The notes below the pieces were generated by a model. That model did not search any database, was not told where the DNA came from, and worked only from the letters and a program-made list of their open reading frames with translations. A stretch of DNA of 64,000 nucleotides from Dictyostelium discoideum (taxonomy: Eukaryota). Of the stretch, positions 19,699 through 31,900 are shown one piece after another (the first letter of the stretch is position 1; every line of letters begins with the position of its first letter). The stretch covers positions 3,744,001 through 3,808,000 of the forward strand of contig CM000151.3 of the NCBI GenBank assembly GCA_000004695.1. Reading direction: 5' to 3'. The position numbers were made by a program, and so were the translations under genes.

Positions 19699-20399
19699 CC
19701 TCTTTTATTTTTTTTTTCTTTTTTTTTTATTTATACTGGAAAAATTATATTACTTTTTATTTAATAAAGTGTGTGAGTGTGTGTATATGTGTGTATATAT
19801 ATTTTGTATCTATGATATTATTATTTATATTGTGTGATGGTAGATTAAAAAAACAAAAATGTTACACACTAAAATTTAATTATTTAAAAAAAAAAAAAAT
19901 AAAAAAAAAATAAAAAATAAAAAAATAAAAAAAGTTATAAGGAGTTGGTGTGAATGAAAACAAAAAAAAAAAAAAAAAAAAATTTAGGTAAAAATTGTGG
20001 TGTTATTAAAACAAAATTATTAAAAAAAAAAATAAATAAATAAAATTATTAAGAATTTAATAACCAAAAAAAGTGTAAATTACAAATTATAGTTTTATTT
20101 TCCAAAAACACACAAGATTGATATGTTGAAAACCACTAACAACTATAACTCCTTTTAATGTTTGGAAAAAAAAAAAAAAACAAAACAAATTATAGTAATA
20201 AAAAAATCACAAAAAAAGATATATTGCGTGTGTATTTATTTATTTATTTTAAATTTGAATAAGAATAGCAAATAGTTTTTTTTTTTTTTAAAAATTTTTC
20301 TAATTTCTTTTTTTCTAATTTCTTTTTTTATTTTTTTTTTATTTTTTTTTATTTAAATTAATTTAATTTTAAAAATTTTTTTTTTTCTTGAACGATTTC

Positions 20400-20431
<32 letters not shown>

Positions 20432-21351
20432 ATTTTTTTTTTTTTATTTTTATTTTTGTTTGTTTTTTATATTTGGTTTGGATAAAAATAATTTTTTTTT
20501 TGAAAATGATTTATTGGTGGGTGAAAAAATTGTATTGTTATAATAATCAATTTGATGATCAACTATTAATTATGCAACCAATTTTTTTTTTTTTTTTTTC
20601 TGTGAACCCACTCTTTGTAAATGTGACCCACCAAAACGCACCAATGATATAAAACTAAAATTACATTATTGTTGATTTATTTTTAAAATTTTATAAATAA
20701 TAAAAAAAAAAAAAAAAATCAGCATTTTGTGCTCTCTGTTATCGAATTCGCACCATCACAATTTTTTTTTTTTTTTTCATTTTCCAAAAAATAAAGATTT
20801 ATTATTATTATTATTATTATTATTAATAATTAATTATCAATCTCCTCCCTCAGGCAAATGAATTTTTTTTATTTTTATTTTTAATTTTTTATTTTTAATT
20901 TTTTATTTTTAAATATTTGAATTTTAGTTTAAAAGATAGAATATAAATAATTTTGTTAATGCACCAACGATTGAACAAAAAATATTTTAATAAATTCACC
21001 ATTAGTGAGAACAGCACTGACTTACCTCCACTATCACATACCATTGATTCTTTTTATATTATTTTATTTTATTTTATTTTTATTTTATTTTAATTTTATT
21101 TTTATTTTTTTTTTTTATTTTTATTTTATACTATTTTTATTTTATTTTATTTTATTTTTATTTATTACATTTTTATTTTATTTTAAAGATAATTATTTGA
21201 ATTTTAGAAAAAAAAAATTTAGATAAGATTACTCTTTTTTTATTTCATTTACAAATTGTAAAATTGGGATTTATTTTTGGTTGGTTTAATATTTAAATTA
21301 TAATTTAATTTTTGTAATTTTAATTACAACCACAATTGTTTGAACCTCCAG

Positions 21352-21667
21352 TTAAAATGGAACCCCCTCCAAGCTTCCATAAGTTTCAACAAGAATACCA
21401 CCAGGGTTACGACCAATTCCACCGAGAAATCCTGGATTGCTAATGCTAATGCCGCCACGGCGTTCAATTGAATTCATTGATTGTAAAGAAGATAATGAAT
21501 TTGATAATGATGATAAATTATTTGATTTCGAAATTGATTTAACATTACTAATTGATGAAATTAAACCTATATAAAATTATTATTAAATTTTTAAAAAACA
21601 AATAATTTAAATATTTTTTTTTTTTTTTTTTTTTTTACAAAAAATAAAGCATACCTAAGATTGTCAT
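21352..21667 (-). pseudogene. hssA/2C/7E-family small glycine-rich protein gene, copy 1; C-terminal frame diverged
   Basis: Mini-exon 21655..21667 (ATGACAATCTTAG; donor GTATGC) plus exon 21352..21566 gives [75 protein letters not shown]. The conserved family tail [14 protein letters not shown] is still present at nucleotide level but lies one frame out, and the QCGGC cysteines are replaced, so this copy looks frameshifted or degenerate. Confidence 0.45.
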
Positions 21668-21773
21668 TTTTTGATATTATTTAATAGTATTATTTGTTTG
21701 TTCGTTTTGGAATATTAATAAAAAAATAAATAAATAAAAAAGTATTTATCACTACGTTATCAAACAGGGTCTG

Positions 21774-21805
<32 letters not shown>

Positions 21806-22024
21806 ACAGCTGTGTTATTTTTATTTGTGTGCAAATATAAAATTTAATATAAATTTTTGTTTTTGTTTTTTGGACCCCCTTTTTAAAAAGGGGTTAATAT
21901 ATTTTATTGATGTAGTTAATTTATTATCTTTTGAAAACAATAATTTGATATATTAATCGAGAGTGATGGAAGATTATAATCATATCGAGGACAGCCAAAC
22001 GGAGATTTCTATTCAAAAGCATAA

Positions 22025-22083
<59 letters not shown>

Positions 22084-22469
22084 ATTTTGAGTAATTAATG
22101 AGGTTTTTGATAAAAATTCATTTTCTTTATGATTAATCTTTTTGATTGAATGATTTTTTTTATTTTTTTATTTTTTTTTAAATTTATTATTATTTAAATT
22201 TTCTTATCCAGGGATAATTTAATTTGGAATTTTTTTTTTTTGTGATTTTTTTTTTTTATATTTAAAAGACAAACTTGTAATTTAAAGTTACAACTCTTAT
22301 TAATTTTTTAAATAAAGAACAACTTTGAAAAATAATAAATTTAAAAAATAATTTTAAAAAAAGTATAATTAAATAATTCTATTTTTTTTTTTTTTTATTT
22401 TACAAATTAAAAAATTGGGTTTTATTTTTGGTTGGTTTAATATTTTAATTATAATTTAAGTTTGTAATT

Positions 22470-22637
22470 TTAATTACAACCACAATTGTTTGAACCTCCA
22501 GTTAAAATGGAACCGACTCCGTGTAAAACAGAACCAATGATTACACCAGTACCAACAAGAACACCACCAACAAGACCACCAACTCCACCGAGTAATCCTC
22601 CATTTCCACAACCACCACCACATTGAATTGAATTCAT
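22470..22637 (-). CDS. hssA/2C/7E-family small glycine-rich protein, copy 2 (55 aa; lacks the MTIL mini-exon)
   Basis: [58 protein letters not shown] matches the typical C-terminal two-thirds of Dictyostelium HssA-like proteins. Sequence 5' of the ATG differs from copy 1 and has an in-frame stop, so no MTIL exon was found. Confidence 0.5.
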
Positions 22638-22699
22638 TGATTGTAAAGAAGCATCCTCACCCTTTTATGATGTTTTTGTATGATTGGATTTTTAAATTT

Positions 22700-24654
22700 T
22701 AAAGTGAGAAAAAAATTTAGGAACTTCGGACGAAAGTTGAAAATTTTTTTTTTTTTTTTTTTTCCGGCAAAAATGAAAAATATTTAATAAAAAAAAATTG
22801 AGCGAATATAGCCACTTCCACAATATACATATAAAAGAGCTTTATTTTTTGTATTTGTTAATTTTAATTAATATTGAGATATAGTAAATTTTGAGGCTTG
22901 TCAACAACGAGAATCGATGCCTGAATCTGAGGAAAAATAAAAATCTATGGTTTACCGGTGACTCGACCAATGAGTAATGGTAGACGTAGAATTAAATTCT
23001 AAGTTGAAATCACTTGATCCGGTTTATCTACGGGGTCATTAAGGTACCAAAAATTAAAATTACTGAAAAAAAAATTTTAAAAAATTTTCAAAAATTTTTT
23101 TATATGGAGAAATTTTTTTTCGGAAAATCGAAAAAAATTCTGCGCGTAAATCGTCTCGTTAAAATTTAATTCTTTTTGAGTATGTTAATGATCTATCGTG
23201 TATCTAACTTCTGTATTTCGCTTTTTGCACTCAATTTTTTTTTATTAAATATTCAATCGAATCTTTGGCGGGTGGTAAGTGAAAAATCACCATTTTTCCC
23301 AAGTTTTTTTTGGTGTAAGGAGGCTAAGTAAAAAGTCCCTCGTGTTCACTCGACCGACGGTTCCTAGTAAGCTTTCCAGAGCATTTGGGATAATCTGACA
23401 CAAGATCGTATTTTAAAGGGGGGTACTGGACCCCCTAAAAAATTCGCCAAGTTGACACACCAAAAACAGTGTTTTTTCGTGGATTTTTCAAGGAACTTTA
23501 TAGATATTTTAATTAACGAAATTGAGTGAATGTAGACCCATAAAAGTAGCAACTAGACTCAATGAGAGATATTCTGACACATTTTACCAAATAGCTTATG
23601 TGCATATAGTGAATATAAAGACTGGGGACGAAAAGTGAAAATTTTCCAATAAATTCAAAAATTGGTGTATTTTAGCGAAAAATTTAAATGGTGTCGTTCC
23701 TTATCAATCAAAGTTTTTTTAAAAGATAGATATTTTAATTTTACACTTACTGTTACCTCACGGCAGAGTCAACCAAGTAACACAATTTTTTATTTAACTC
23801 GGAAGTTCGTAAAAATATGACATTGGATCCTCATTTACAGATTACAGTGGTTTTATGGTGAGTCGACCGTGAGGTAACTGTAATTAGTTATATTCTTGGC
23901 GATGTTAATGTATTTTTCCGTTTTTGCCTAGGGGGTCACGATCAAAACTTATTAAAATTTTGGCGCCAAAAAATTTTTCATATAAAAAAAAAAAAAATTA
24001 ATGTGAGAAATTTCAATTTGGAGGTTCGAAAAAAATTCGAAAAAAATATGTACTATTTTTTTATTCCAATGATTTTTAGATATAATATAGCTGAAAATGA
24101 GGGCTATCTTTTGTATGTCTTACTTTTTAAATGGCAAGTTAAAAAAAAAATTGGTTTACAAAAAACTTTCTCAAGTACCCCCTATTTTTGGGGGTAAAAA
24201 AGTGCAAAATTTCACTGTAACTTTCATAAATATTACTCCTATTTAGTTCACTCGACCGACGGTTCCTAGTAAGCTTTCCAGATGTACTGACACAGCCTCG
24301 AAACAACGCGCGTAGTCTGGCGGGTCAAATAGACCCCTAAAAAAATTCTGAAAAAATCGCTGTTTTTTGGTGTTTTTTCGTAGGTGATAACTTTTCATTA
24401 AAATAAAAGGAATATTACTCGTAGGATTTAAAAACGTATATGTTTTTAAACATTCTCAAATTTATAGAAAATTTATAGGAAATAGGAACAATTTACTTAT
24501 GAATGATTTTTAAATATAAAAACCCCGATCCATTTTTGAAAAATCGATTTTTTTTAAATTTTTAGCGAAAAATATTTAAATTTTTAAAATGACTTTAAAT
24601 TTGAACCGGACTTTGATTTTTATAGATTACTAGTCATTTGACATCAACACATCA
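22700..24654. repeat. unclassified non-coding complex repeat with about 0.9-kb internal periodicity, truncated by the assembly gap
   Basis: Moderately GC-rich non-coding sequence with internal direct repeats. cactcgaccgacggttcctagtaagctttccaga occurs at 23346 and 24249; ggtgactcgaccaatgagtaatggtagacg (22958) pairs with ggtgagtcgaccgtgaggtaactgtaat (23868); ggggtactggaccccctaaaaaattc (23431) pairs with ggcgggtcaaatagacccctaaaaaaattc (24320). No ORFs. Confidence 0.6.
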
Positions 24655-24754
24655 NNNNNNNNNNNNNNNNNNNNNNNNNNNNNNNNNNNNNNNNNNNNNN
24701 NNNNNNNNNNNNNNNNNNNNNNNNNNNNNNNNNNNNNNNNNNNNNNNNNNNNNN
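24655..24754. other. assembly gap (100 N)
   Basis: Run of exactly 100 n characters. Confidence 1.
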
Positions 24755-25287
24755 AAAATTGGGGTGCACCAAAATTTACATCAGCAGAGAGATTTGAAGC
24801 ACAATTTAGTAAAATTAAAGACCTTTTGACAAACAATACAAACAACCAAGATCAACATAAATTTGAAAGAGTAAAAAAAATATTAATGGCAACATTTTTA
24901 GATAATTTTAACAATCTAAAAGAAAAAGATGATGACAATAATGATTTAATTTTAGGGCAAATAATTAAAAAAAATGAAAATATTTATTTAAAAAATAATA
25001 TTTTATCAGACATTAACTTGCATTACAAAAACATTGAAAATATTCAATTTCATAAATCAATTAAAAATTTAAAAGAAATATATAATGTTGGTGATGGAAT
25101 TGAAGTTGCCTCAGAAAATTCATTAACTGGACGATGGAGTGCAATAATTATTGCTATTTGTTTAATAGAATTAAAAAATAAAAAAAGTGCACATTCTATT
25201 TATATACAATACTTTGATAAAGATACAGGTGATCAAAATAATAAGTACCACTTTTTAAGAAAAAGCTTTTCAAGTATAACATATTAA
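24755..25287 (+). CDS. 3' fragment of an unknown ORF, truncated on its 5' side by the gap
   Basis: Reading frame is open from the first base after the N-run to the stop at 25285..25287 (..NWGAPKFTSAERFEAQFSKIKDLLTNNTNNQDQHKF...SITY*). There is no ATG at its start; track ORF 24826 begins at a TTG. It could be host-gene or repeat-element coding sequence. Confidence 0.3.
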
Positions 25288-25396
25288 ACACATTAATACC
25301 AATACAAATCGATTCGTCTAACTATCTTATAATTTATAAGTGCCATGACCAATTTTCAATAAGTAAAAAAAAAAAATGAAAAAAATTCGTTGAACT

Positions 25397-25600
25397 CACA
25401 GCGAAGAAAAAACCACCTTTAAATTCGCTTTAAATTAAATTTAAATTTGCTTTAAAGTCCTGAATTAAAGCAATTTTAAAGGTAATTTTAAAGGTAATTT
25501 TTAAGGTTACTTTAAAATTACCTTTAAAATTACCTTTAAAATTACCTTTTTAATCGCTTTAAAAGCGAGGTCCTGAGTTCGAAGCCGTTATTTAACGGAT
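25397..25600 (+). repeat. terminal-type repeat copy A
   Basis: See the composite element; starts at cacagcgaagaaaaaacc and contains (ttaaaggtaatt)n-like sub-repeats. Confidence 0.7.
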
Positions 25601-25640
25601 AAATTTTTTAAATTTTTTTTTTTAATTTTTCAAAAATTAC

Positions 25641-25713
25641 CAAAAGGGATTCGATCCCCCGACCCTCTATTAAAGGGTAGTCTCATCAACCATTACACCA
25701 TTTGATTGCTTTG
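25641..25713 (-). tRNA. tRNA-like degenerate sequence (possible tRNA pseudogene or element-associated tRNA remnant)
   Basis: Minus-strand sequence ..TGGTGTAATGGTTGATGAGACTACCCTTTAATAGAGGGTCGGGGGATCGAATCCCTTTTGG.. has a D-arm like tRNA-Gln/Glu genes (TGGTGTAATGGT), an anticodon-type hairpin (ACCCT-TTAATAG-AGGGT) and a T-arm-like GGGGGATCGAATCCC. The acceptor stem does not pair, so this is not a functional-looking tRNA. Confidence 0.25.
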
Positions 25714-25789
25714 ATGAAAAATTTAAAAATGATAGAATATTTTATCCCCATTTTTTTGTTCTAAAATTAGATCTTTTTTATTAAAAACC

Positions 25790-26131
25790 TTTAATTTATG
25801 TTTAAAGGAAATTTAAATTCACTTTAAATCTACTTTAAATCCTATTTAAAATTAATTTAAAATAAATTTTAAAGGTATTTTTAAATGTCTTAAAAATTAT
25901 CTTAAATTTACCTTAAAAATCACCTTTAAAATCACCTTTAAAATCACCTTTAAAATTGCTTAAAAATTTATTTTAAAGCAAATTTTAAAGGCATTTTTAA
26001 ATATCTTAAAAATTACCTTAAAAATTACCTTAAAAATGAATTTTTTAAACGCGGCTTTAAATTCAATTTAAATCCAATTTAAATCAACTTTTCTTTAAAT
26101 TTGCTTTAAAGGTGCATTTTTCTTTGCTGTG
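25790..26131 (-). repeat. terminal-type repeat copy B (inverted relative to A)
   Basis: 25790..25995 is the reverse complement of 27700..27920. 25995..26131 resembles the reverse complement of the start of A, ending ..tttgctttaaaggtgcatttttctttgctgtgc. Confidence 0.7.
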
Positions 26132-26259
26132 CTTATTTACATAACTTTTACATTTTTACGTAACTTTTTCTTTTTTTTTTTTCTTTTTTCCAATTTTCTT
26201 TTTTTTCGGTTGGAAATTATAGGATTTTAAAAAAAAATTAAAAAAATATTATAAAAAAA

Positions 26260-26549
26260 ATGACTCACAATAATTCTGCATCATTTGAAACACCAAATAG
26301 AAGTGGTAATTATGTAAATAGATCATCTTTAACTTCACCAACATCACCAATAACACCAATCACATCTCTTATTTTAAATCAAACTGATACCTCCATAGGT
26401 CCACAACGTACTGTTAGAAGACAACAAAGACCTCAAAGACCAAATGCAAGTCATCCACCAACAACAAATATTGTAGAAAAAATATTGGTGTATGAAACAT
26501 TGCACAGAAATTGTGTTTCTCAATACTATGCAACTGGTAAGGTAAGATA

Positions 26550-26594
<45 letters not shown>

Positions 26595-27233
26595 AAGAGA
26601 CTAATTAAATTAAATAAACAAAAATAATACATAAGATTTCCTCTCGTTTTATTAGGACCTGTATATTAAATGCTGGCGGTACAAATTCAAATGAAAATAA
26701 AGTTGTTCTATCCAAATTGGTTAAATGGGTCAACAATAAACGTGGTAACACACGTATTAAAGCCCTAAATACCCTTAGACTTTTAGTTAGAAATAAAGTA
26801 GAACAGTTCAGCGAGTTGCTCTCTCAGGTTCCACCATTAATGGAGTATGAATCGGTATGTAAAAAAAAAAAAAAAATAAAAAATAAAAAAAAAATAAAAA
26901 AAAAAAAAAAAAAAAAATAAATTATTAATAATTTGTTTTTTTAATTTTTTAATTATTATTTAGATAACTCCTTTTGATTTGGCCACTCTTATTATCGATA
27001 CAGTTACCTTAGAAGCTTTTGACTCCGATCCTTTTGTAAAGTTCTTAGTGTCTCAATGCTTTACAATTGAAGAAAAAGAATGGTACAGCGGTTCCAAACC
27101 TCTTATTTCTTTAATAGTTAAAGCATTGCGTGGTGTTTCTCAAAAGTTCATTGACTCTCCTGATGAACTTACTTACACTGAAAAGGTTGCTTTTGAATTC
27201 ACTTCAATACCTCTTTATGCTCCACTAAATTAA
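26260..27233 (+). pseudogene. host-like spliced ORF set inside the repeat island (3 exon-like segments; exon 1/2 phase mismatch)
   Basis: Segments 26260..26541 (MTHNNSASFETPNRSG...QYYATGK), 26656..26854 (..ILNAGGTNSNENKVVLSKLVKWVNNKRGNTRIKALNTLRLLVRNKVEQFSELLSQVPPLMEYES; donor GTATGT) and 26964..27233 (ITPFDLATLIIDTVTLEAFDSDPFVKFLVSQCF...LYAPLN*). Exons 2 and 3 join in phase. No donor at 26536/26541 gives the phase that exon 2 needs, so either exon 1 belongs elsewhere or the gene is disrupted. Confidence 0.3.
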
Positions 27234-27419
27234 ATCGTTTAAATAAAAAAAATTAATATGATTTCACATACTCAACTTTAATTTTTTCTTTTTTTTTTAA
27301 ATCTTTTTTTAATTTTTATTTTAAATTATTTTTTTTAATTTTTATTTTTAAAGTGATATTATTAATATATCTTATCAAGTTAACTTTATAATATAAATTT
27401 ATAAATGCACTTTTAAATT

Positions 27420-27700
27420 GAATTTTATAAATATAATTAATAAGAATACTTAATAAGTGTACTTACAAAGAGTACATTATAATTATAATTAGTAATTACG
27501 CTTAATAATTATACTTAATAAGTATATTTAATAAGTATACTTAATAAGTATACTTAATAAGTATATTTAATAAGTATACTTAATAAGTATACTTAATAAG
27601 TATATTTAATAAGTATACTTAATAAGTATACTTAATAAGTATATTTAATAAGTATACTTAATAAGTATACTTAATAAGTATATTTAATAAGTATACTTAA
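27420..27700. repeat. 13-bp satellite (taataagtatact / taataagtatatt), about 20 units with a 39-bp higher-order period
   Basis: Direct reading. Related palindromic variants tacttaataagtattacttattaagtatacttattaa occur at 28040..28082. Confidence 0.9.
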
Positions 27701-27925
27701 TAATATTTAAAAATGCCTTTAAAATTTGCTTTAAAATAAATTTTTAAGCAATTTTAAAGGTGATTTTAAAGGTGATTTTAAAGGTAATTTTTAAGGTAAT
27801 TTTTAAGATAATTTTTAAGATATTTAAAAATACCTTTAAAATTTATTTTAAATTAATTTTAAATAGGATTTAAAGTAGAATTAAAGTGAATTTAAAGTGA
27901 ATTTAAATTTCCTTTAAACATAAAT
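27700..27925 (+). repeat. terminal-type repeat copy B'
   Basis: Reverse complement of 25790..25995. Confidence 0.7.
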
Positions 27926-28149
27926 ATTATTTTTTTCGTTAAAAAAAAAAAATTCCAAAATTTTTTATTTTTTTTTGTGTTAAAAAAAAATTCCTAAATT
28001 TTTTTTTTTATTGTATTTTTTTTCATCACACCATTATAAATTCTATGTACTTAATAAGTATTACTTATTAAGTATACTTATTAATATATATTAAAAAGAG
28101 TACTTGGATTTAAAGGTGCTTTAAAGTGTTGATTTTCGCCGCTGTGTGG

Positions 28150-28960
28150 ATTGGTATCGACTCTACTGATTGTTTGGTCAATACTTCTTGGAATGTTCCC
28201 AGTACTTGAGGAAACATATGACGATGATGACGAGGAACTTGAGCTTGAATCATCGGATACCAAGTTGCTGATCTCCAGATTGGGAAGATCAGTATTATAG
28301 AAACCTTCTTCGAACTGGATGAGTTCATCTTCTCCAGTATAGAAGGCAAAAGAATGGGTGGTGGAAAGGCCAGACATTACTTATATTGACTCCAATCGAG
28401 GTGGAGTGCATTCATTCTGATTGTTGAGTAGTTGTTCGTTTGATGGTTGAGGTGAGATGCGAACAGATCCATCTGTATTTGACCGAATTGAAGTTGCCAG
28501 TTGTAACTCTTGATTACTCTGGTCGATGATATGTGATTCATCTCTGAAAGACGACTGAGGTGGTCGGCTTTTACATTATTCATAATATATATATATATGA
28601 TAATATAAATTAAATTTTTAAATCTTATTCATAATATATATATATATATATATGATAATATAAATTACCAGCCTTATTCTTAATCACAAGCTTGTGTTCG
28701 AGTTTACTTAAAAAATACTACAAATATGTATGTTGTAACTCTTCCACTAAAGAATCCAGCTCTCCACGGTATGCTTGCTGTAGTTCTGCCTCATGAGCCT
28801 GGAGACGTTCCTCAGGAGACAAGCTATGGCTGAACGAATTAGACAGAATAACACCACGAGGGATACCGTAGTGGGATAGGTTAGATGCCTTCATAACAAA
28901 CCAGAAGTTTAACAGCCAACTCACTACCATGTCATTGTTAGAGACTCAAAACTAAATTAA
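28150..28960 (-). pseudogene. decayed DIRS-like (tyrosine-recombinase retroelement) fragment: RNase H C-terminal motif plus recombinase N-terminal motif
   Basis: Minus-strand translation gives ..NNVKADHLSRLSEMNHISSTRVIKSYNWQLQFGQIQMDLFASHLNHQTNNYSTIRMNALHLDWSQYK*. NxxADxLSR is the conserved end of retroelement RNase H domains. DLFAS.LN.Q...Y........DW matches, from memory, the N-terminus of DIRS/Ngaro-type tyrosine recombinases (DLFASRLNxQLPxYxSWxPDPxAxxxDAFxxDW). The reading frame is broken by an AT-rich tandem duplication at 28585..28680 and by stops. GC is higher than in the surrounding DNA. Confidence 0.5.
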
Positions 28961-29288
28961 TTTAAAGTTAGTTTGAGCTCAACAACATAACAAATTCGCG
29001 CATCTCCATGTAAAAATATTTCATTTAATTTTTGTTTTTTATTTTTTATTTTTTCAGTCAAAAAATAAAATTAAAAAAATTAAATAAAATTAAAATTTAA
29101 AAAAATAATAAAAATTCTGATTTTCGGTTTAGTTAGATAACGCCCTTACATTCAATTATCTGTTTTATGTATGTTTACTTTTATGATGTTAGTCTTTCAC
29201 TCTTTCTATCCTTCATATGGAATGACATTAGATTAAAGATTGGACTAGTTCGGTTAAAGATTGAACAAATGTGACAATGGATTGAAGA

Positions 29289-30480
29289 TTAGTGTGAGAA
29301 ACTTTTACAGTCATCGTATCCAGACGCCTTGTGGTCAATACGACCATTCTTAACAACCAGACTGGTGATCTCATTAATCAGCGTTTTATCGTGAGTAACA
29401 CGACCAGCGCGTTTAGCCGCTTCAGGTAGGACTTCACCGTACAGTGTCAACGCGATTCGGCTGTAGTAACGAACCCAAACTTGTTACGCACGTCATCGTA
29501 GAAATAACTACCACGAGGACGCAGTGGATTGTTAACCATAGCAGCTGCATTTTTATCCACCTTCACCTCTTCAACAATCCAGTTAAAAATATGTTTGAAT
29601 GGATCAATACCTTGTAACGGCGAATTTAATCAGGTTAGTTTCATTACAACCCCCTGCATCTACTGTAACCATATCACGAATGTAAGTAAACACTAAACCA
29701 ATGGCATCTCTACCGATCGCTTCCGAGGGATCCATCCCTAGTAGAATGTGTGCCCCTTCGTTAATTTCTCATGTCGATCTTTTGGTATGTGTCAGCCGAT
29801 ACTGTAACCGTCTTTGGAACTCAGTCCACAGTGGGTCACGTTCATAGTCACGGATAATGTTGTTTAGCTCAGTTGACAGAGGTGAACGTAAAGAACCTGA
29901 TGTCCAGCGGTTAAAGAAGTCACGGTCTGCTTCTTTAATTTTAACACCGGAGTTCTGCAATGCGTCACGCAGCCATTCTTTATCCAAACCAAGCTGACGA
30001 TAACTCCACGTCCCGTTAATCATAATAAGCGCACCTTTCTTACCGATGAGTTTGATTAATACGGTACGTAGTTCTTCCTGGTTTCTCAGGTCTATGATGG
30101 TCTTTAACCCAAAGATAAGACGGCAGTAGATCGCGAATCTCTTTTAATCGGTCGAAGTTAGACCGTCAGTAGTGCGTCATCCTTCGTAATCAGGTTAATG
30201 CTGATGGTATCTGACGAACCAGACTTACCGGTCTGACGGGGATTAACATGTAGTCGATGTGGTTATAGAAGCTCCAGATCAAACTCAGGTTAGCACGGTT
30301 TGCTTTAAAAGGACGCGGCGTTGCACCCGCAGAGAATCTAACGACCTCACGATAGTAATACCATGGGTTGAATCGACATTCGATAGCGAATTAATTTCTT
30401 ATGACAGATCGGTGGCAAATGGATCCACTGACTTAATTCCTGTTGAAGGAGACTAAGCATGAATGTACAGTTCTCAACAC
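29289..30480 (-). pseudogene. T4-type phage terminase large subunit (TerL, gp17-like) gene, frameshifted and decayed
   Basis: Minus-strand frames, joined across at least four frame breaks, give a P-loop ..HVNPRQTGKSGSSDTISINLITKDD.., then FDRLKEIRDLLPSYLWVKDHHRPE, ..LIKLIGKKGALIMINGTWSYRQLG.., ..ILLGMDPSEAIGRDAIGLVFTYIRDMVTVDAGG.., ..GSYFYDDVRNKFGFV.. and the C-terminus ..VVKNGRIDHKASGYDDCKSFSH*. From memory these correspond to T4 gp17 blocks: Walker A [48 protein letters not shown], the nuclease motif ATLDCSEGRGQDYHALHI and EGYHDD. Similarity is from recall only. Confidence 0.55.
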
Positions 30481-30595
30481 CCATTTCTTTATAAAGATTT
30501 AGAAATTCAAGTTAATCAAATAATATTAATATTGTATTTGTATTCAAAGTGAAAAACTAAATTTTTCGAAAAACGAAAAACTTCGTAAAGTATCA

Positions 30596-30665
30596 AAATA
30601 CTTTACAAAAATTCAAAAAAAAATTCAAAAAAAAATTCAAAAAAAAATTCAAAAAAAAATTCAAA
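30596..30665. repeat. (aaattcaaaaaaaa)n 14-bp tandem repeat, 5 units
   Basis: Direct reading. Confidence 0.9.
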
Positions 30666-30689
30666 AAAAAAAAATTTAAAAAAATTTAT

Positions 30690-30903
30690 CCGTTAAATAA
30701 CGGCTTCGAACTCCGGACCTCGCTTTTAAAGGATTAAAAAGCTAATTTTTAAGGTAATTTTAAAGGTATTTTTTAAGGTGATTTTAAAGTAAACTTAAAA
30801 ATTACCTTTAAAATTACCTTAAAAATTGCTTTAATTCAGGACTTTAAATTCGCTTTAAATTAAATTTAAATTTGCTTTAAAGGAGGATTTTTCTTCGCTG
30901 TGG
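30690..30903 (-). repeat. terminal-type repeat copy A' (inverted copy of A)
   Basis: Starts ccgttaaataacggcttcgaactccggacctcgctt and ends ..tttgctttaaaggaggatttttcttcgctgtgg, the reverse complement of the start of A. Confidence 0.75.
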
Positions 30904-31900
30904 AATAAGCTGAGTTATTTCGAAAAAAGTTTATTTTTTTTTGACAAATTTTGCATGTTTTTTTTTTTTTTTTTTAATAAAACACATTATTTAAAACAAA
31001 AATTTTAAATAATATAAAACAATATTTGTTAAGACCTATCGTAGAATTAAATTTGGTTGTATTTATGGAGAAATAAAGAAAATATAAAAAAAAATGAACT
31101 TCGAAAAAAAAAAAAGGAACTTCAAAAAAAAAAAACTACATAAAATTTTTGTTTTAAATAATGGGGGACCTATCAGTGAATAATTGAATTAATTTTGAAA
31201 AAAAAAAGTTATTTTGAAAAAGATCGAGTTATCCCGGAAAAGATCAATCTTTTCGCGAAAAATTTTTCATTGGCCATATTATTTTTTTTTTTTTTAATTT
31301 TTTTCATTTATTCACAATTAAAATAAAAAATATAATAAATAAATAAATAAATAAAATAAATAGTATGATTGACAAAAAAAAATCAAAAATACCAGGGCTC
31401 AAATAAAGGATTTATTTTTTATATGTAGTTTTTTTTTTTTAAGTTCCTTTTTTTTTTCGAAATTCATTTTTTTTTATATTTTTTTTATTTCTCTATAAAT
31501 ACAACCAAATTTAATTCTACGACAGTCTTTACAAATATTGTTTTATATTATTTAAAATTTTTGTTTTAAATAATGTGTTTTATTAAAAAAAAAAAAAAAA
31601 AAAACATATGAAAAGTGAAAAATTTTTCAAAAAAAAATAAACTTTTTTCGAAATAACTCAATTTATTCCGGGATAACTCGATCTTTTTCAAAATAACTTT
31701 ATTTATTCAGAATTAATTCAATTATCCACTGATAGGTCCATTATTTAAAATTTTTGTTTTAAATAATGTGTTTTATTAAAAAAAAAAAAAAAAAAACATA
31801 TAAAATTTGAAAAAATTTCGAAAAAAAAAACTTTTTTTGAAATAAATGAATTTATTCTGAGATAACTCGATCTTTTTTAAAATATGCTGAGTTAATTATA
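30903..31900. repeat. nested inverted and direct repeats of a ~300-bp AT-rich module (non-coding)
   Basis: The module gagttat(t/c)tcgaaaaaagtttatttttt..aataaaacacattatttaaaacaaaaattttaaataatataaaacaatatttgt.agac..tcgtagaattaaatttggttgtatttatggagaaataa occurs at 30903..31080 (forward), 31440..31640 (reverse) and 31740..31880 (partial). Segments 31140..31330 and 31620..31740 form a further inverted pair. Confidence 0.7.

What the first reader, a model, noticed from the sequence alone, without database searches (positions are those of the whole stretch)
25397..30903. Four copies of a terminal-type repeat define nested transposon-like units with cargo
A ~200-bp repeat built from (ttaaaggtaatt)-like sub-repeats occurs at 25397..25600 (forward) and 30690..30903 (reverse complement, near-identical). 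It starts cacagcgaagaaaaa and ends ..cgaggtcctgagttcgaagccgttatttaacgg. Related units 25790..26131 and 27700..27925 form a second inverted pair. The terminal heptamer cacagcg, or its complement, marks four ends: 25399, 26131, 28137..28149 and 30903. The geometry is a small ~730-bp element (25397..26131) and a larger unit holding a spliced host-like gene, a 13-bp satellite, a DIRS-like fragment and the TerL pseudogene. I cannot assign this TIR to a named Dictyostelium element from memory.
Basis: seen in the sequence. Interest (0 to 1): 0.7.

Follow-up and report, generated by a model that had tools for sequence, protein, structure and literature searches.

The report
Nested Dictyostelium DDT-type DNA transposons
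The four "ends" are real termini of ordinary cut-and-paste DNA transposons of Dictyostelium discoideum (almost certainly the known DDT family) piled into one another, and not one big transposon carrying host and phage cargo.

Summary
The repeats and all four CACAGCG ends exist as described.

- **Short element.** 25397-26131 is a complete 735-bp non-autonomous DNA transposon. Paralogous copies of its target lack it ("empty site" TTCGTTGAA-CT-TATTTAC), so it inserted with a 2-bp duplication (CT). Three more copies in a second D. discoideum assembly also have 2-bp duplications, two with empty sites.
- **The "host-like" gene.** This is DDB_G0274765, ORF2 of a ~5.5-kb autonomous element. That element has related CACAG termini, inverted 13-bp satellite arrays and an 816-aa protein. 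Profile comparison places the protein with CACTA/Mirage/Chapaev (CMC) DDE transposases.
- **Other three repeat units.** 27703-27949 is an internal fragment of another short copy. 28046-28146 is an inverted left-end stub of the large element. 30655-30902 is a truncated left end of a short copy.
- **No 5.5-kb unit.** The outer pair 25397/30902 has unmatched flanks (CT versus GA) and a truncated right arm. The DIRS fragment and the phage TerL pseudogene lie between unrelated stubs and are not cargo.

By size, subfamily count and elimination the family is DDT-A/B/S (Glöckner 2001). I could not compare it with reference sequences. The result is ordinary and already catalogued. The CMC assignment and the 2-bp duplication may be a small addition.

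The parts
24755..25396 (+). 3' part of the transposase gene (ORF1, C-terminal ~150 codons, prematurely ended at 25287) plus the ORF1-ORF2 spacer of a large A-type autonomous element. The 5' part is lost in the 100-N assembly gap at 24655-24754.
   Evidence: 97.9% identical to L002 4222-4873. The ORF 24826-25287 matches the C-terminus of the 816-aa protein. In L001 this copy is cut at about codon 540 by another element's terminus.
25395..25396 (.). Left copy of the 2-bp target-site duplication (CT).
   Evidence: Empty site TTCGTTGAA-CT-TATTTACAT in L002 and L003, against CT[element]CT in the window.
25397..26131 (+). Complete 735-bp short non-autonomous element (DDT-S-like). Termini are CACAGCGAAGAAAAA at the left and TTTTTCTTTGCTGTG at the right. 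Left subterminal 11/12-bp repeats run 25415-25565 and include the palindrome 25465-25562. The unique core is 25566-25786. Right subterminal repeats run 25787-26116.
   Evidence: 95-96% identical to three further full copies in L001. Empty site and TSD. No ORF of 50 aa or more. TRF.
26132..26133 (.). Right copy of the 2-bp target-site duplication (CT).
26132..27706 (+). Continuation of the large A-type element. It holds ORF2 (DDB_G0274765, 256 aa; exons 26260-26541, 26636-26854, 26964-27233) and the right subterminal 13-bp satellite array (27427-27703, 21 units).
   Evidence: Homology to L002-L005 starts exactly at 26132, at 88-97% identity. The spliced protein is 100% identical to P0060, which is DDB_G0274765. 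It belongs to a 19-member cluster restricted to D. discoideum. TRF.
27703..27949 (-). Internal fragment (consensus positions ~390-633, right subterminal repeats) of another short-element copy. It has no terminus.
   Evidence: 94.7-98.2% identical to the L001 copies. Alignment A2.
28046..28146 (-). Inverted stub of the LEFT end of a large A-type element. The terminus CACAGCGGCGAAAATCAACAC reads leftward from 28146 and is followed by the first satellite units.
   Evidence: 97% identical to L002 1061-1167 in reverse orientation, with the terminus matched. Left-end type sequence.
30655..30902 (-). Truncated stub holding the left ~240 bp of a short-element copy. The terminus is at 30902. The stub is cut at a (A8TTC)n microsatellite, and a 41-bp segment is inverted relative to 25417-25457.
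   Evidence: 90% identical to the left ends of the L001 copies and 85.6% to 25397-25600. The flank is GA, not CT.

Best explanation
The region is a nest of class II (cut-and-paste) transposons of one Dictyostelium discoideum family. The family has termini 5'-CACAGC...GCTGTG-3', 150-340 bp of subterminal 11-13-bp repeats, and 2-bp target-site duplications.

It has two autonomous subfamilies of ~5.1-5.6 kb. Each encodes an ~820-aa DDE transposase of the CACTA/Mirage/Chapaev (CMC) type, followed by a ~260-aa second protein. It also has a ~750-bp non-coding derivative.

In the window, a 5'-truncated A-type copy (24755-27706) received a complete short element (25397-26131) in the spacer between its two genes. 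Further fragments of the same family sit to the right: 27703-27949, 28046-28146 and 30655-30902. They are interleaved with a DIRS fragment and a decayed phage terminase fragment.

**Shown**
- The element boundaries, empty sites and 2-bp duplications.
- The multi-copy nature of both elements.
- Homology of the transposase to tnp2/CACTA-type proteins.

**Inferred**
- The transposase binds the subterminal repeats, cuts at CACAG and integrates with a 2-bp stagger.
- The short element is mobilised in trans, most likely by the B-type enzyme. The first 14 nt of the B-type terminus equal the short element's right terminus.
- The family is the published DDT-A/DDT-B/DDT-S.
For: **Species and locus**
- The window is D. 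discoideum.
- The window gene is DDB_G0274765.
- A second assembly carries the same locus at 99.8% identity.

**Insertion proof**
- Homology to paralogs L002-L005 breaks exactly at 25396 | 26132, with the CT duplicated.
- L001 copies a and b have empty sites in L003, with AT and AA duplicated.
- 8 of 9 complete copies have matching 2-bp flanks.
- For the first seven copies, 6 of 7 match. The chance of that is about 1e-5, given 0.11 per pair.

**Large element**
- Termini were found at L002 1067/6628, L004 1129/6424 and L005 1283/6517.
- The B-type element spans L006 4135-9190 and L007 3979-9558.
- ORF2 is conserved next to the transposase in both types, at 30-36% aa identity.

**Transposase**
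- An exhaustive profile search gives weak hits at E 1e-7 to 1e-3.
- Two of these hits carry Pfam PF02992 Transposase_21 above its cut-off, and one shows DUF4218.
- hhalign of A1 against those relatives gives probability 99.1% and E 9e-19 over 477 columns.
- It aligns IFSDG to NTDG and MDIPEF..CHTC to D.pA..C.fC.
- It also aligns PDILHNILLG to LHxIxLGV, and NFHLLLH..NWGAPK..SAERFE to NiHLLLH..WGPL..SaFxFE.

**Literature**
- The CMC(T) clade has CA(C)..(G)TG termini, 2-5-bp TSDs and C(2)C plus H(3-4)H motifs (PMC12730594).
- CACTA MITEs with a 2-bp TSD are reported (PMC6004678).
- D. discoideum DNA transposons fall into Tdd, DDT and thug only (PMC5633606).
- DDT elements cluster with their own kind and with DIRS (PMC2665215).
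Against: - No direct Pfam hit for the 816-aa protein, even at E<=1, and no PDB sequence hit. The superfamily link rests on intermediates that were picked by the C-terminal half of the same profile. Only the N-terminal D-D-C2C alignment is independent evidence.
- The AlphaFold models were unusable (pLDDT 40 and 42), so there is no structural confirmation.
- One of nine flank pairs does not match (L005, TA/AA).
- The large element's subterminal motif is the 13-bp TTAATAAGTATAC. The short element's is the 12-bp AATTTTAAAGGT. The A-type copy next door is therefore probably not the mobilising partner.
- The names DDT-A/B/S rest on my memory of Glöckner et al. 2001 and on elimination.
Confidence: 0.85

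Rival explanations
1. First reader's model. 25397 and 30903 are the two ends of one ~5.5-kb composite or nested transposon that mobilises a host gene, a satellite, a DIRS fragment and a phage TerL pseudogene as cargo.
For: - The two outer units are inverted and 85.6% identical over 216 bp, with exact 15-nt termini.
- The whole arrangement is conserved in a second assembly.
Against: - The flanks differ: CT at 25395-25396 and GA at 30903-30904.
- The left unit is demonstrably the end of the 735-bp element, which has its own right end and its own TSD.
- The right unit is a truncated stub of about 248 bp.
- The interior breaks down into independent elements with their own termini.
- No other locus fetched carries TerL or this combination.
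Confidence: 0.03
2. The short and large elements belong to the thug family (thug-S/thug-T), or to an uncatalogued family, and not to DDT.
For: - I could not compare them with any reference repeat library.
- thug elements are also small D. discoideum class II repeats, and thug-S yields hairpin small RNAs (PMC4894637).
- The short element contains a 98-nt palindrome with weak miRNA-hairpin-like Rfam scores, all below the gathering threshold.
Against: - The published thug-S miRNA sequences (miRNA_can_D3-5p/3p) are absent from the window and from L001-L005, even allowing 3 mismatches.
- The family seen here has exactly two autonomous subfamilies plus one short one. This matches DDT-A, -B and -S.
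- DDT is the abundant family that co-clusters with DIRS near centromeres (PMC2665215).
- thug makes up only 0.1% of the genome (PMC5633606).
Confidence: 0.1
3. The inverted repeats arose by local segmental duplication, inversion or recombination of low-complexity AT-rich DNA, with no transposition involved.
For: - The units consist of simple TTTAAA-type sub-repeats in a 78% AT genome.
- The region contains an assembly gap.
- One 41-bp segment is locally inverted between the two outer copies.
Against: - Three precise empty-site and filled-site pairs have 2-bp duplications.
- The element boundaries are identical in five copies.
- The same termini flank transposase-encoding elements at unrelated loci in three assemblies.
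Confidence: 0.02

Closest known systems
DDT-A / DDT-B / DDT-S (Dictyostelium DNA transposons, Glöckner et al. 2001 Genome Res 11:585)
   Same: - Restricted to D. discoideum.
- Class II elements with inverted termini.
- Two long coding subfamilies plus one short non-coding one.
- Strong tendency to insert into its own kind and to sit among DIRS and skipper sequences. This clustering is documented for DDT in PMC2665215.
- The transposase is absent from the AX4 protein set, as expected for genes that dictyBase tags as TE.
   Different: No difference is demonstrable. Identity with the reference sequences was not tested. ORF2 copies (for example DDB_G0267252 and DDB_G0274765) are listed as ordinary genes and not as TE genes (PMC12405889).
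CACTA/En-Spm, Mirage and Chapaev (CMC) superfamily DNA transposons
   Same: - 5'-CAC...GTG-3' termini.
- Short TSD. A 2-bp TSD is reported for some CACTA MITEs (PMC6004678), and 2-5 bp for the clade (PMC12730594).
- Arrays of ~12-bp subterminal repeats in both orientations.
- Motif order D...D...C(2)C...H(3)H...E.
- A second element-encoded protein. This parallels TnpA next to TnpD in maize En/Spm (my own knowledge).
   Different: - The sequence is too divergent for a direct Pfam Transposase_21 hit.
- The terminus is CACAG, not CACTA.
- ORF2 has no detectable similarity to TnpA or to anything outside D. discoideum.
- No phylogeny was made, so placement within CMC is open.
MITEs / non-autonomous deletion derivatives
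   Same: - The 735-bp element has no ORF.
- It has termini like those of the autonomous elements and the same TSD length.
- Several 95-98% identical copies exist.
- Insertions postdate a segmental duplication.
   Different: - It is larger than typical MITEs.
- Its core (25566-25786) is not a simple internal deletion of the A-type element.
- Only its arms resemble the B-type ends, at 73-77% identity.
thug-S and Tdd-4/Tdd-5 (the other D. discoideum DNA transposons)
   Same: Same host genome and same TE-rich neighbourhoods.
   Different: - The thug-S miRNA sequences are absent.
- Tdd-4/5 encode integrase-like (rve) transposases (PMC2836005). The 816-aa protein has no rve hit.

Membership tests
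CMC (CACTA/Mirage/Chapaev) DNA transposons | Termini 5'-CAC...GTG-3' | tested here: met
   CACAGC...GCTGTG at both ends of 4 distinct short copies (the window copy recurs in L001), 3 A-type copies and 2 B-type copies.
CMC (CACTA/Mirage/Chapaev) DNA transposons | Short target-site duplication (2-5 bp) | tested here: met
   The TSD is 2 bp. Three empty/filled site pairs show it, and 8 of 9 complete copies have identical 2-bp flanks.
CMC (CACTA/Mirage/Chapaev) DNA transposons | [quoted passage not shown] | tested here: met
   hhalign gives probability 99.1% and E 9e-19 against relatives with the invariant residues D, D, C-x2-C, H-x3-H and E. MDIPEF, CHTC, PDILHN and SAERFE are invariant in family alignment A1. 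Catalytic roles are inferred and were not tested.
CMC (CACTA/Mirage/Chapaev) DNA transposons | Direct match to a curated model of the family (Pfam PF02992 Transposase_21 / DUF4218) | tested here: not met
   There is no Pfam hit at E<=1 for the 816-aa protein. The link is only through intermediates P0120 and P0127 (PF02992 at 42 and 39 bits against a cut-off of 28.6) and P0129 (DUF4218, below cut-off).
CMC (CACTA/Mirage/Chapaev) DNA transposons | Subterminal arrays of short repeats in both orientations | tested here: met
   The short element has 11/12-bp units in direct and inverted runs. The A-type element has 13-bp arrays at both ends.
DDT family of D. discoideum | Sequence identity with the DDT-A, DDT-B and DDT-S consensus sequences | not testable with these tools
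   No Dictyostelium repeat library or eukaryote nucleotide database is available, and Glöckner 2001 is not held.
DDT family of D. discoideum | Two long coding subfamilies plus one short one, restricted to D. discoideum and clustered with DIRS and its own kind | tested here: met
   A-type and B-type transposases share ~50% identity. The short element is ~750 bp. Protein hits come only from D. discoideum and D. cf. discoideum. Nested insertions are seen. The expected features themselves come from my memory and from PMC2665215.
thug-S | Carries the multicopy miRNA hairpin (miRNA_can_D3-5p/3p of PMC4894637) | tested here: not met
   No match at up to 3 mismatches in the window or in L001-L005.
Tdd-4/Tdd-5 (Ginger-like) | Integrase-type (rve) transposase | tested here: not met
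   No rve hit in the 816-aa protein. Its motifs are of the CMC type.
   The right end is truncated at ~248 bp. The flanks are CT versus GA. The unit was not found at other loci.
   The repeats have their own termini and TSDs. The DIRS-like piece is a separate fragment at 28147-28577. It has a weak Dam-type methyltransferase hit and is 95% identical to a copy in L006.

The most novel reading that the evidence does not exclude
A 2017 review states that the D. discoideum DNA-transposon transposases share no significant similarity with known transposases. The DDT family may instead be a highly divergent amoebozoan lineage of the CMC (CACTA/Mirage/Chapaev) superfamily. On this reading it has strict 2-bp target duplications and a conserved two-gene layout. 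Its ORF2 copies are currently annotated as ordinary host genes. It would also show recent activity, because insertions postdate a segmental duplication. This classification may be unpublished.
Probability: 0.35. Interest if true: 0.3.

Novelty: already known. Interest (0 to 1): 0.2.

Why it matters
The direct value is mostly housekeeping.

- A suspicious "cargo-carrying nested transposon" turns out to be a pile-up of catalogued DNA transposons in a TE-rich, gap-containing part of D. discoideum chromosome 2.
- The family's insertion signature is now explicit: CACAG termini and a 2-bp duplication, with empty sites in hand.
- Its transposase can be tied to the CACTA/Mirage/Chapaev group.
- About twenty "hypothetical protein" genes (DDB_G0274765, DDB_G0267230, DDB_G0267252, DDB_G0277819 and others) are transposon ORF2 copies and not host genes. 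This matters when they appear in expression screens, for example among the DNMA-knockout up-regulated genes.

Tried and rejected
- **Reference papers.** Glöckner 2001 and Eichinger 2005 are not held, nor is Avesson 2012. Literature searches for DDT-A and DDT-S gave no structural description.
- **Exact look-up of window ORFs.** Two window ORFs were not found in public assemblies, nor was P0045.
- **tRNA hypothesis for the element core.** ARAGORN found none in the window or in four loci. Rfam gave no tRNA hit. The fold is no better than shuffles (z -0.15). I rejected it as a tRNA gene. Only A-box-like and B-box-like strings remain.
- **miRNA-like Rfam hits on the palindrome.** All are far below the gathering scores. 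They are treated as a generic hairpin.
- **Direct annotation of the proteins.** Pfam and PDB sequence searches of the 816-aa and 256-aa proteins found nothing.
- **Structure prediction.** AlphaFold models of both proteins were too poor to search with (pLDDT 40.0 and 41.6), so no fold search was run.
- **Names of the remote transposase relatives.** These are mostly unnamed metagenome or Logan proteins. One comes from the thrips Frankliniella.
- **The terminus at 28146.** I first took it for the right end of the gene-bearing copy. I rejected this because it is the left-end sequence type in reverse orientation.


Full report
**Observation**

- 25397-25600 and the reverse complement of 30688-30902 align at 85.6% over 216 bp.
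- 25794-26048 and the reverse complement of 27658-27925 align at 86.9% over 268 bp.
- The 15-mer CACAGCGAAGAAAAA is exact at 25397 (+) and 30902 (-). It has one mismatch at 26131 (-) and three at 28146 (-).
- The inner 32-mer with the GAGTTCGAAGCC string occurs twice, against none expected.
- The arms are built from 11/12-bp units (AATTTTAAAGGT) in direct and inverted runs, which give a palindrome at 25465-25562.
- Nothing similar occurs elsewhere in the window.

**Origin**

- The window is AT-rich, about 20% GC.
- A 940-aa ORF is 95% identical to a D. discoideum protein.
- The three-exon gene at 26260-27233 translates to a protein 100% identical to DDB_G0274765 of strain AX4.
- Locus L001, from another D. 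discoideum assembly (GCA_054883475.1), is the same locus at 99.8% identity over window 24800-31500.

**The small element is a real transposon**

The gene at 26260-27233 is not a single-copy host gene.
- It belongs to a 19-member 90%-identity cluster with AX4 paralogs on several chromosomes.
- It has no homologue outside D. discoideum and D. cf. discoideum.

I fetched four paralogous loci, L002-L005.
- In all four, homology to the window begins exactly at 26132, the base after ...GCTGTG.
- Their upstream sequence continues with window ...25396.
- The paralogs read TTCGTTGAA-CT-TATTTACAT. The window reads TTCGTTGAA-CT-[CACAGCG...735 bp...GCTGTG]-CT-TATTTACAT.

This is a filled site against an empty site, with a 2-bp duplication.

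L001 holds three more full copies, 759-760 bp long and 95-98% identical.
- They sit where the window has a 100-N gap.
- Their flanks are AT/AT, TT/TT and AT/AT.
- For two of them, L003 supplies the empty site...cttataat-AT-aaatatgc... and ...ataagt-AA-ttttaaatt....
- L001 and L003 lie on the same contig. These insertions therefore postdate a segmental duplication.

**The large element**

- Comparing L002, L004 and L005 delimits a 5.2-5.6-kb repeat.
- Its termini are CACAG(C/G)G(G/T)CGAAAA... at L002 1067/6628, L004 1129/6424 and L005 1283/6517.
- Its flanks are CA/CA, AA/AA and TA/AA.
- It carries inverted arrays of a 13-bp satellite just inside both ends.
- It encodes an 816-aa ORF with no intron, followed by the 256-aa three-exon gene.
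- A second subfamily has a transposase about 50% identical.
- This B-type element spans L006 4135-9190 (flanks CT/CT) and L007 3979-9558 (flanks AA/AA).
- Its termini are CACAGCAAAGAAAATCACACC. The first 14 nt equal the right terminus of the short element.
- The B-type element also carries an ORF2 homologue after the transposase.
- Overall, 8 of 9 complete copies have matching 2-bp flanks.
- For the seven tested first, 6 of 7 matched. The chance probability is about 1e-5.

**What the other three units are**

- 27703-27949 is 95-98% identical to consensus positions ~390-633 of the short element, in reverse orientation, and lacks a terminus. The "second inverted pair" is two copies of one element in opposite orientation.
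- 28046-28146 is 97% identical to the left end of the large element (L002 1061-1167), reversed. It is a stub and not the right end of the gene-bearing copy.
- 30655-30902 is the left ~240 bp of a short-element copy, reversed. It is cut at an (A8TTC)n microsatellite.
- The flank outside 30902 is GA, while the flank outside 25397 is CT.
- 25397 already has its partner at 26131.

Nothing supports a 5.5-kb mobile unit. The DIRS-like fragment (28147-28577) is 95% identical to a copy in L006 and has a weak Dam-type hit. The TerL pseudogene lies between the stubs and is not cargo.

**Mechanism**

- The 816-aa protein has no direct Pfam or PDB match.
- An exhaustive profile search with nine family members found about 20 weak relatives, at E 1e-7 to 1e-3. 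They matched only profile positions ~450-700.
- Two of these relatives carry Pfam Transposase_21 (tnp2, the CACTA type) above its cut-off. Others show DUF4218 or DUF1258.
- A profile-profile comparison of the two alignments gives probability 99.1% and E 9e-19 over 477 columns.
- That alignment extends N-terminally into the Transposase_21 region, which had not been used to select the relatives.
- It pairs IFSDG with NTDG, and MDIPEF...CHTC with D.pA...C.fC.
- It pairs PDILHNILLG with LHxIxLGV, and NFHLLLH..NWGAPK..SAERFE with NiHLLLH..WGPL..SaFxFE.
- This is the D...D...C(2)C...H(3)H...E layout given for EnSpm, Mirage, Chapaev and Transib (PMC12730594).
- That clade also has CA(C)..(G)TG termini and 2-5-bp duplications. 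CACTA MITEs with 2-bp duplications are described (PMC6004678).

I therefore infer a cut-and-paste DDE mechanism with a 2-bp staggered target cut. I also infer that the subterminal repeats serve as protein-binding sites. The short element would be mobilised in trans. The B-type enzyme is the likelier partner, because the A-type subterminal motif differs. ORF2's role is unknown. It is all-helical with a disordered N-terminus in a low-confidence model. An En/Spm TnpA-like accessory role is only an analogy.

**Name and novelty**

- D. discoideum DNA transposons are reported as three families: Tdd, DDT and thug (PMC5633606).
- Tdd elements have integrase-like enzymes (PMC2836005), which this protein lacks.
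- The published thug-S miRNA sequences are absent from all the loci.
- DDT is the abundant family that clusters with DIRS and with itself (PMC2665215).
- As I recall, DDT has two long members and one short member (A, B, S). This is exactly what I see here.

I could not compare with reference sequences, so the name is an inference. My confidence in it is about 0.75-0.8. Either way, this is a catalogued kind of element in a model genome. The possible small additions are the CMC assignment, the 2-bp duplication and the status of ORF2. A 2017 review says these transposases resemble no known ones.

**Verdict**

It is wrong on the larger cargo unit. The finding is ordinary.

Noticed in passing
window 28688-28936 and 29310-30511, minus strand: A decayed fragment of a jumbo-phage large terminase gene sits in the amoeba genome. 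It has 78% nucleotide identity to Erwinia phage pEa_SNUABM_54 CDS 00131, which matches PHROG 2 TerL at 3e-43. It covers aa 26-669 of 706 in three frames, and aa ~193-287 are missing. GC is about 40-45% in a 20% GC genome. The fragment is present at 99.8% in a second D. discoideum assembly, so it is not contamination. It looks like DNA acquired from a phage of enterobacterial prey.
   Followed up: partly
window 28934-29309: An AT-rich repeat splits the TerL fragment. It also occurs in L002 10040-10446 (87%), in L004 and in L006. At 29232-29253 (minus strand) it has a 21/22 match to the published small RNA miRNA-like_D4 (UCGAACUAGUCCAAUCUUUAAU), which is reported at four mostly subtelomeric sites.
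   Followed up: partly
window 25567-25598 (+) and 25637-25710 (-): The unique core of the short element carries strings that resemble Pol III promoter boxes. These are GAGTTCGAAGCC on the plus strand, and TGGTGTAATGG...GGGATCGAATCCC on the minus strand. They are conserved in all copies. ARAGORN and Rfam find no tRNA, and the fold is no better than shuffled sequence. Whether this matters for tRNA-gene-targeting TRE elements is unknown.
   Followed up: partly
window 24655-24754 (100 N): This is an assembly gap. The gapless ortholog L001 has at least 4.4 kb here, with three further short-element copies nested in related elements. Window sequence left of the gap (20000-24654) has no match in L001 1-4540.
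   Followed up: yes
window 26260-27233; AX4 genes DDB_G0274765, DDB_G0267230, DDB_G0267252, DDB_G0277819: These 256-aa 'hypothetical protein' genes are ORF2 of the large transposon but are listed as ordinary genes. DDB_G0267252 appears, without a TE tag, among genes up-regulated together with transposons in a DNMA knockout.
   Followed up: partly
window 30842-30882 versus 25417-25457: A 41-bp segment of the subterminal repeats is identical in the SAME orientation in the two otherwise inverted outer units. One copy therefore carries a small local inversion between TTTAAAG and CTTTAAA flanks.
   Followed up: no
window 30958-31113 / 31448-31603 and 31166-31266 / 31639-31739: Another pair of inverted repeats (78-99% complementary) lies just right of the last stub. 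It may be a further small element or a palindromic duplication.
   Followed up: no
L003 10440-10488; L001 4134-4265: Right-end fragments of a related but distinct short-type element (...GGCTTTAAAGGTGCATTTTTCTTTGCTGTG) abut interior positions of the transposase ORF. These are further nested insertions that truncate A-type copies.
   Followed up: partly
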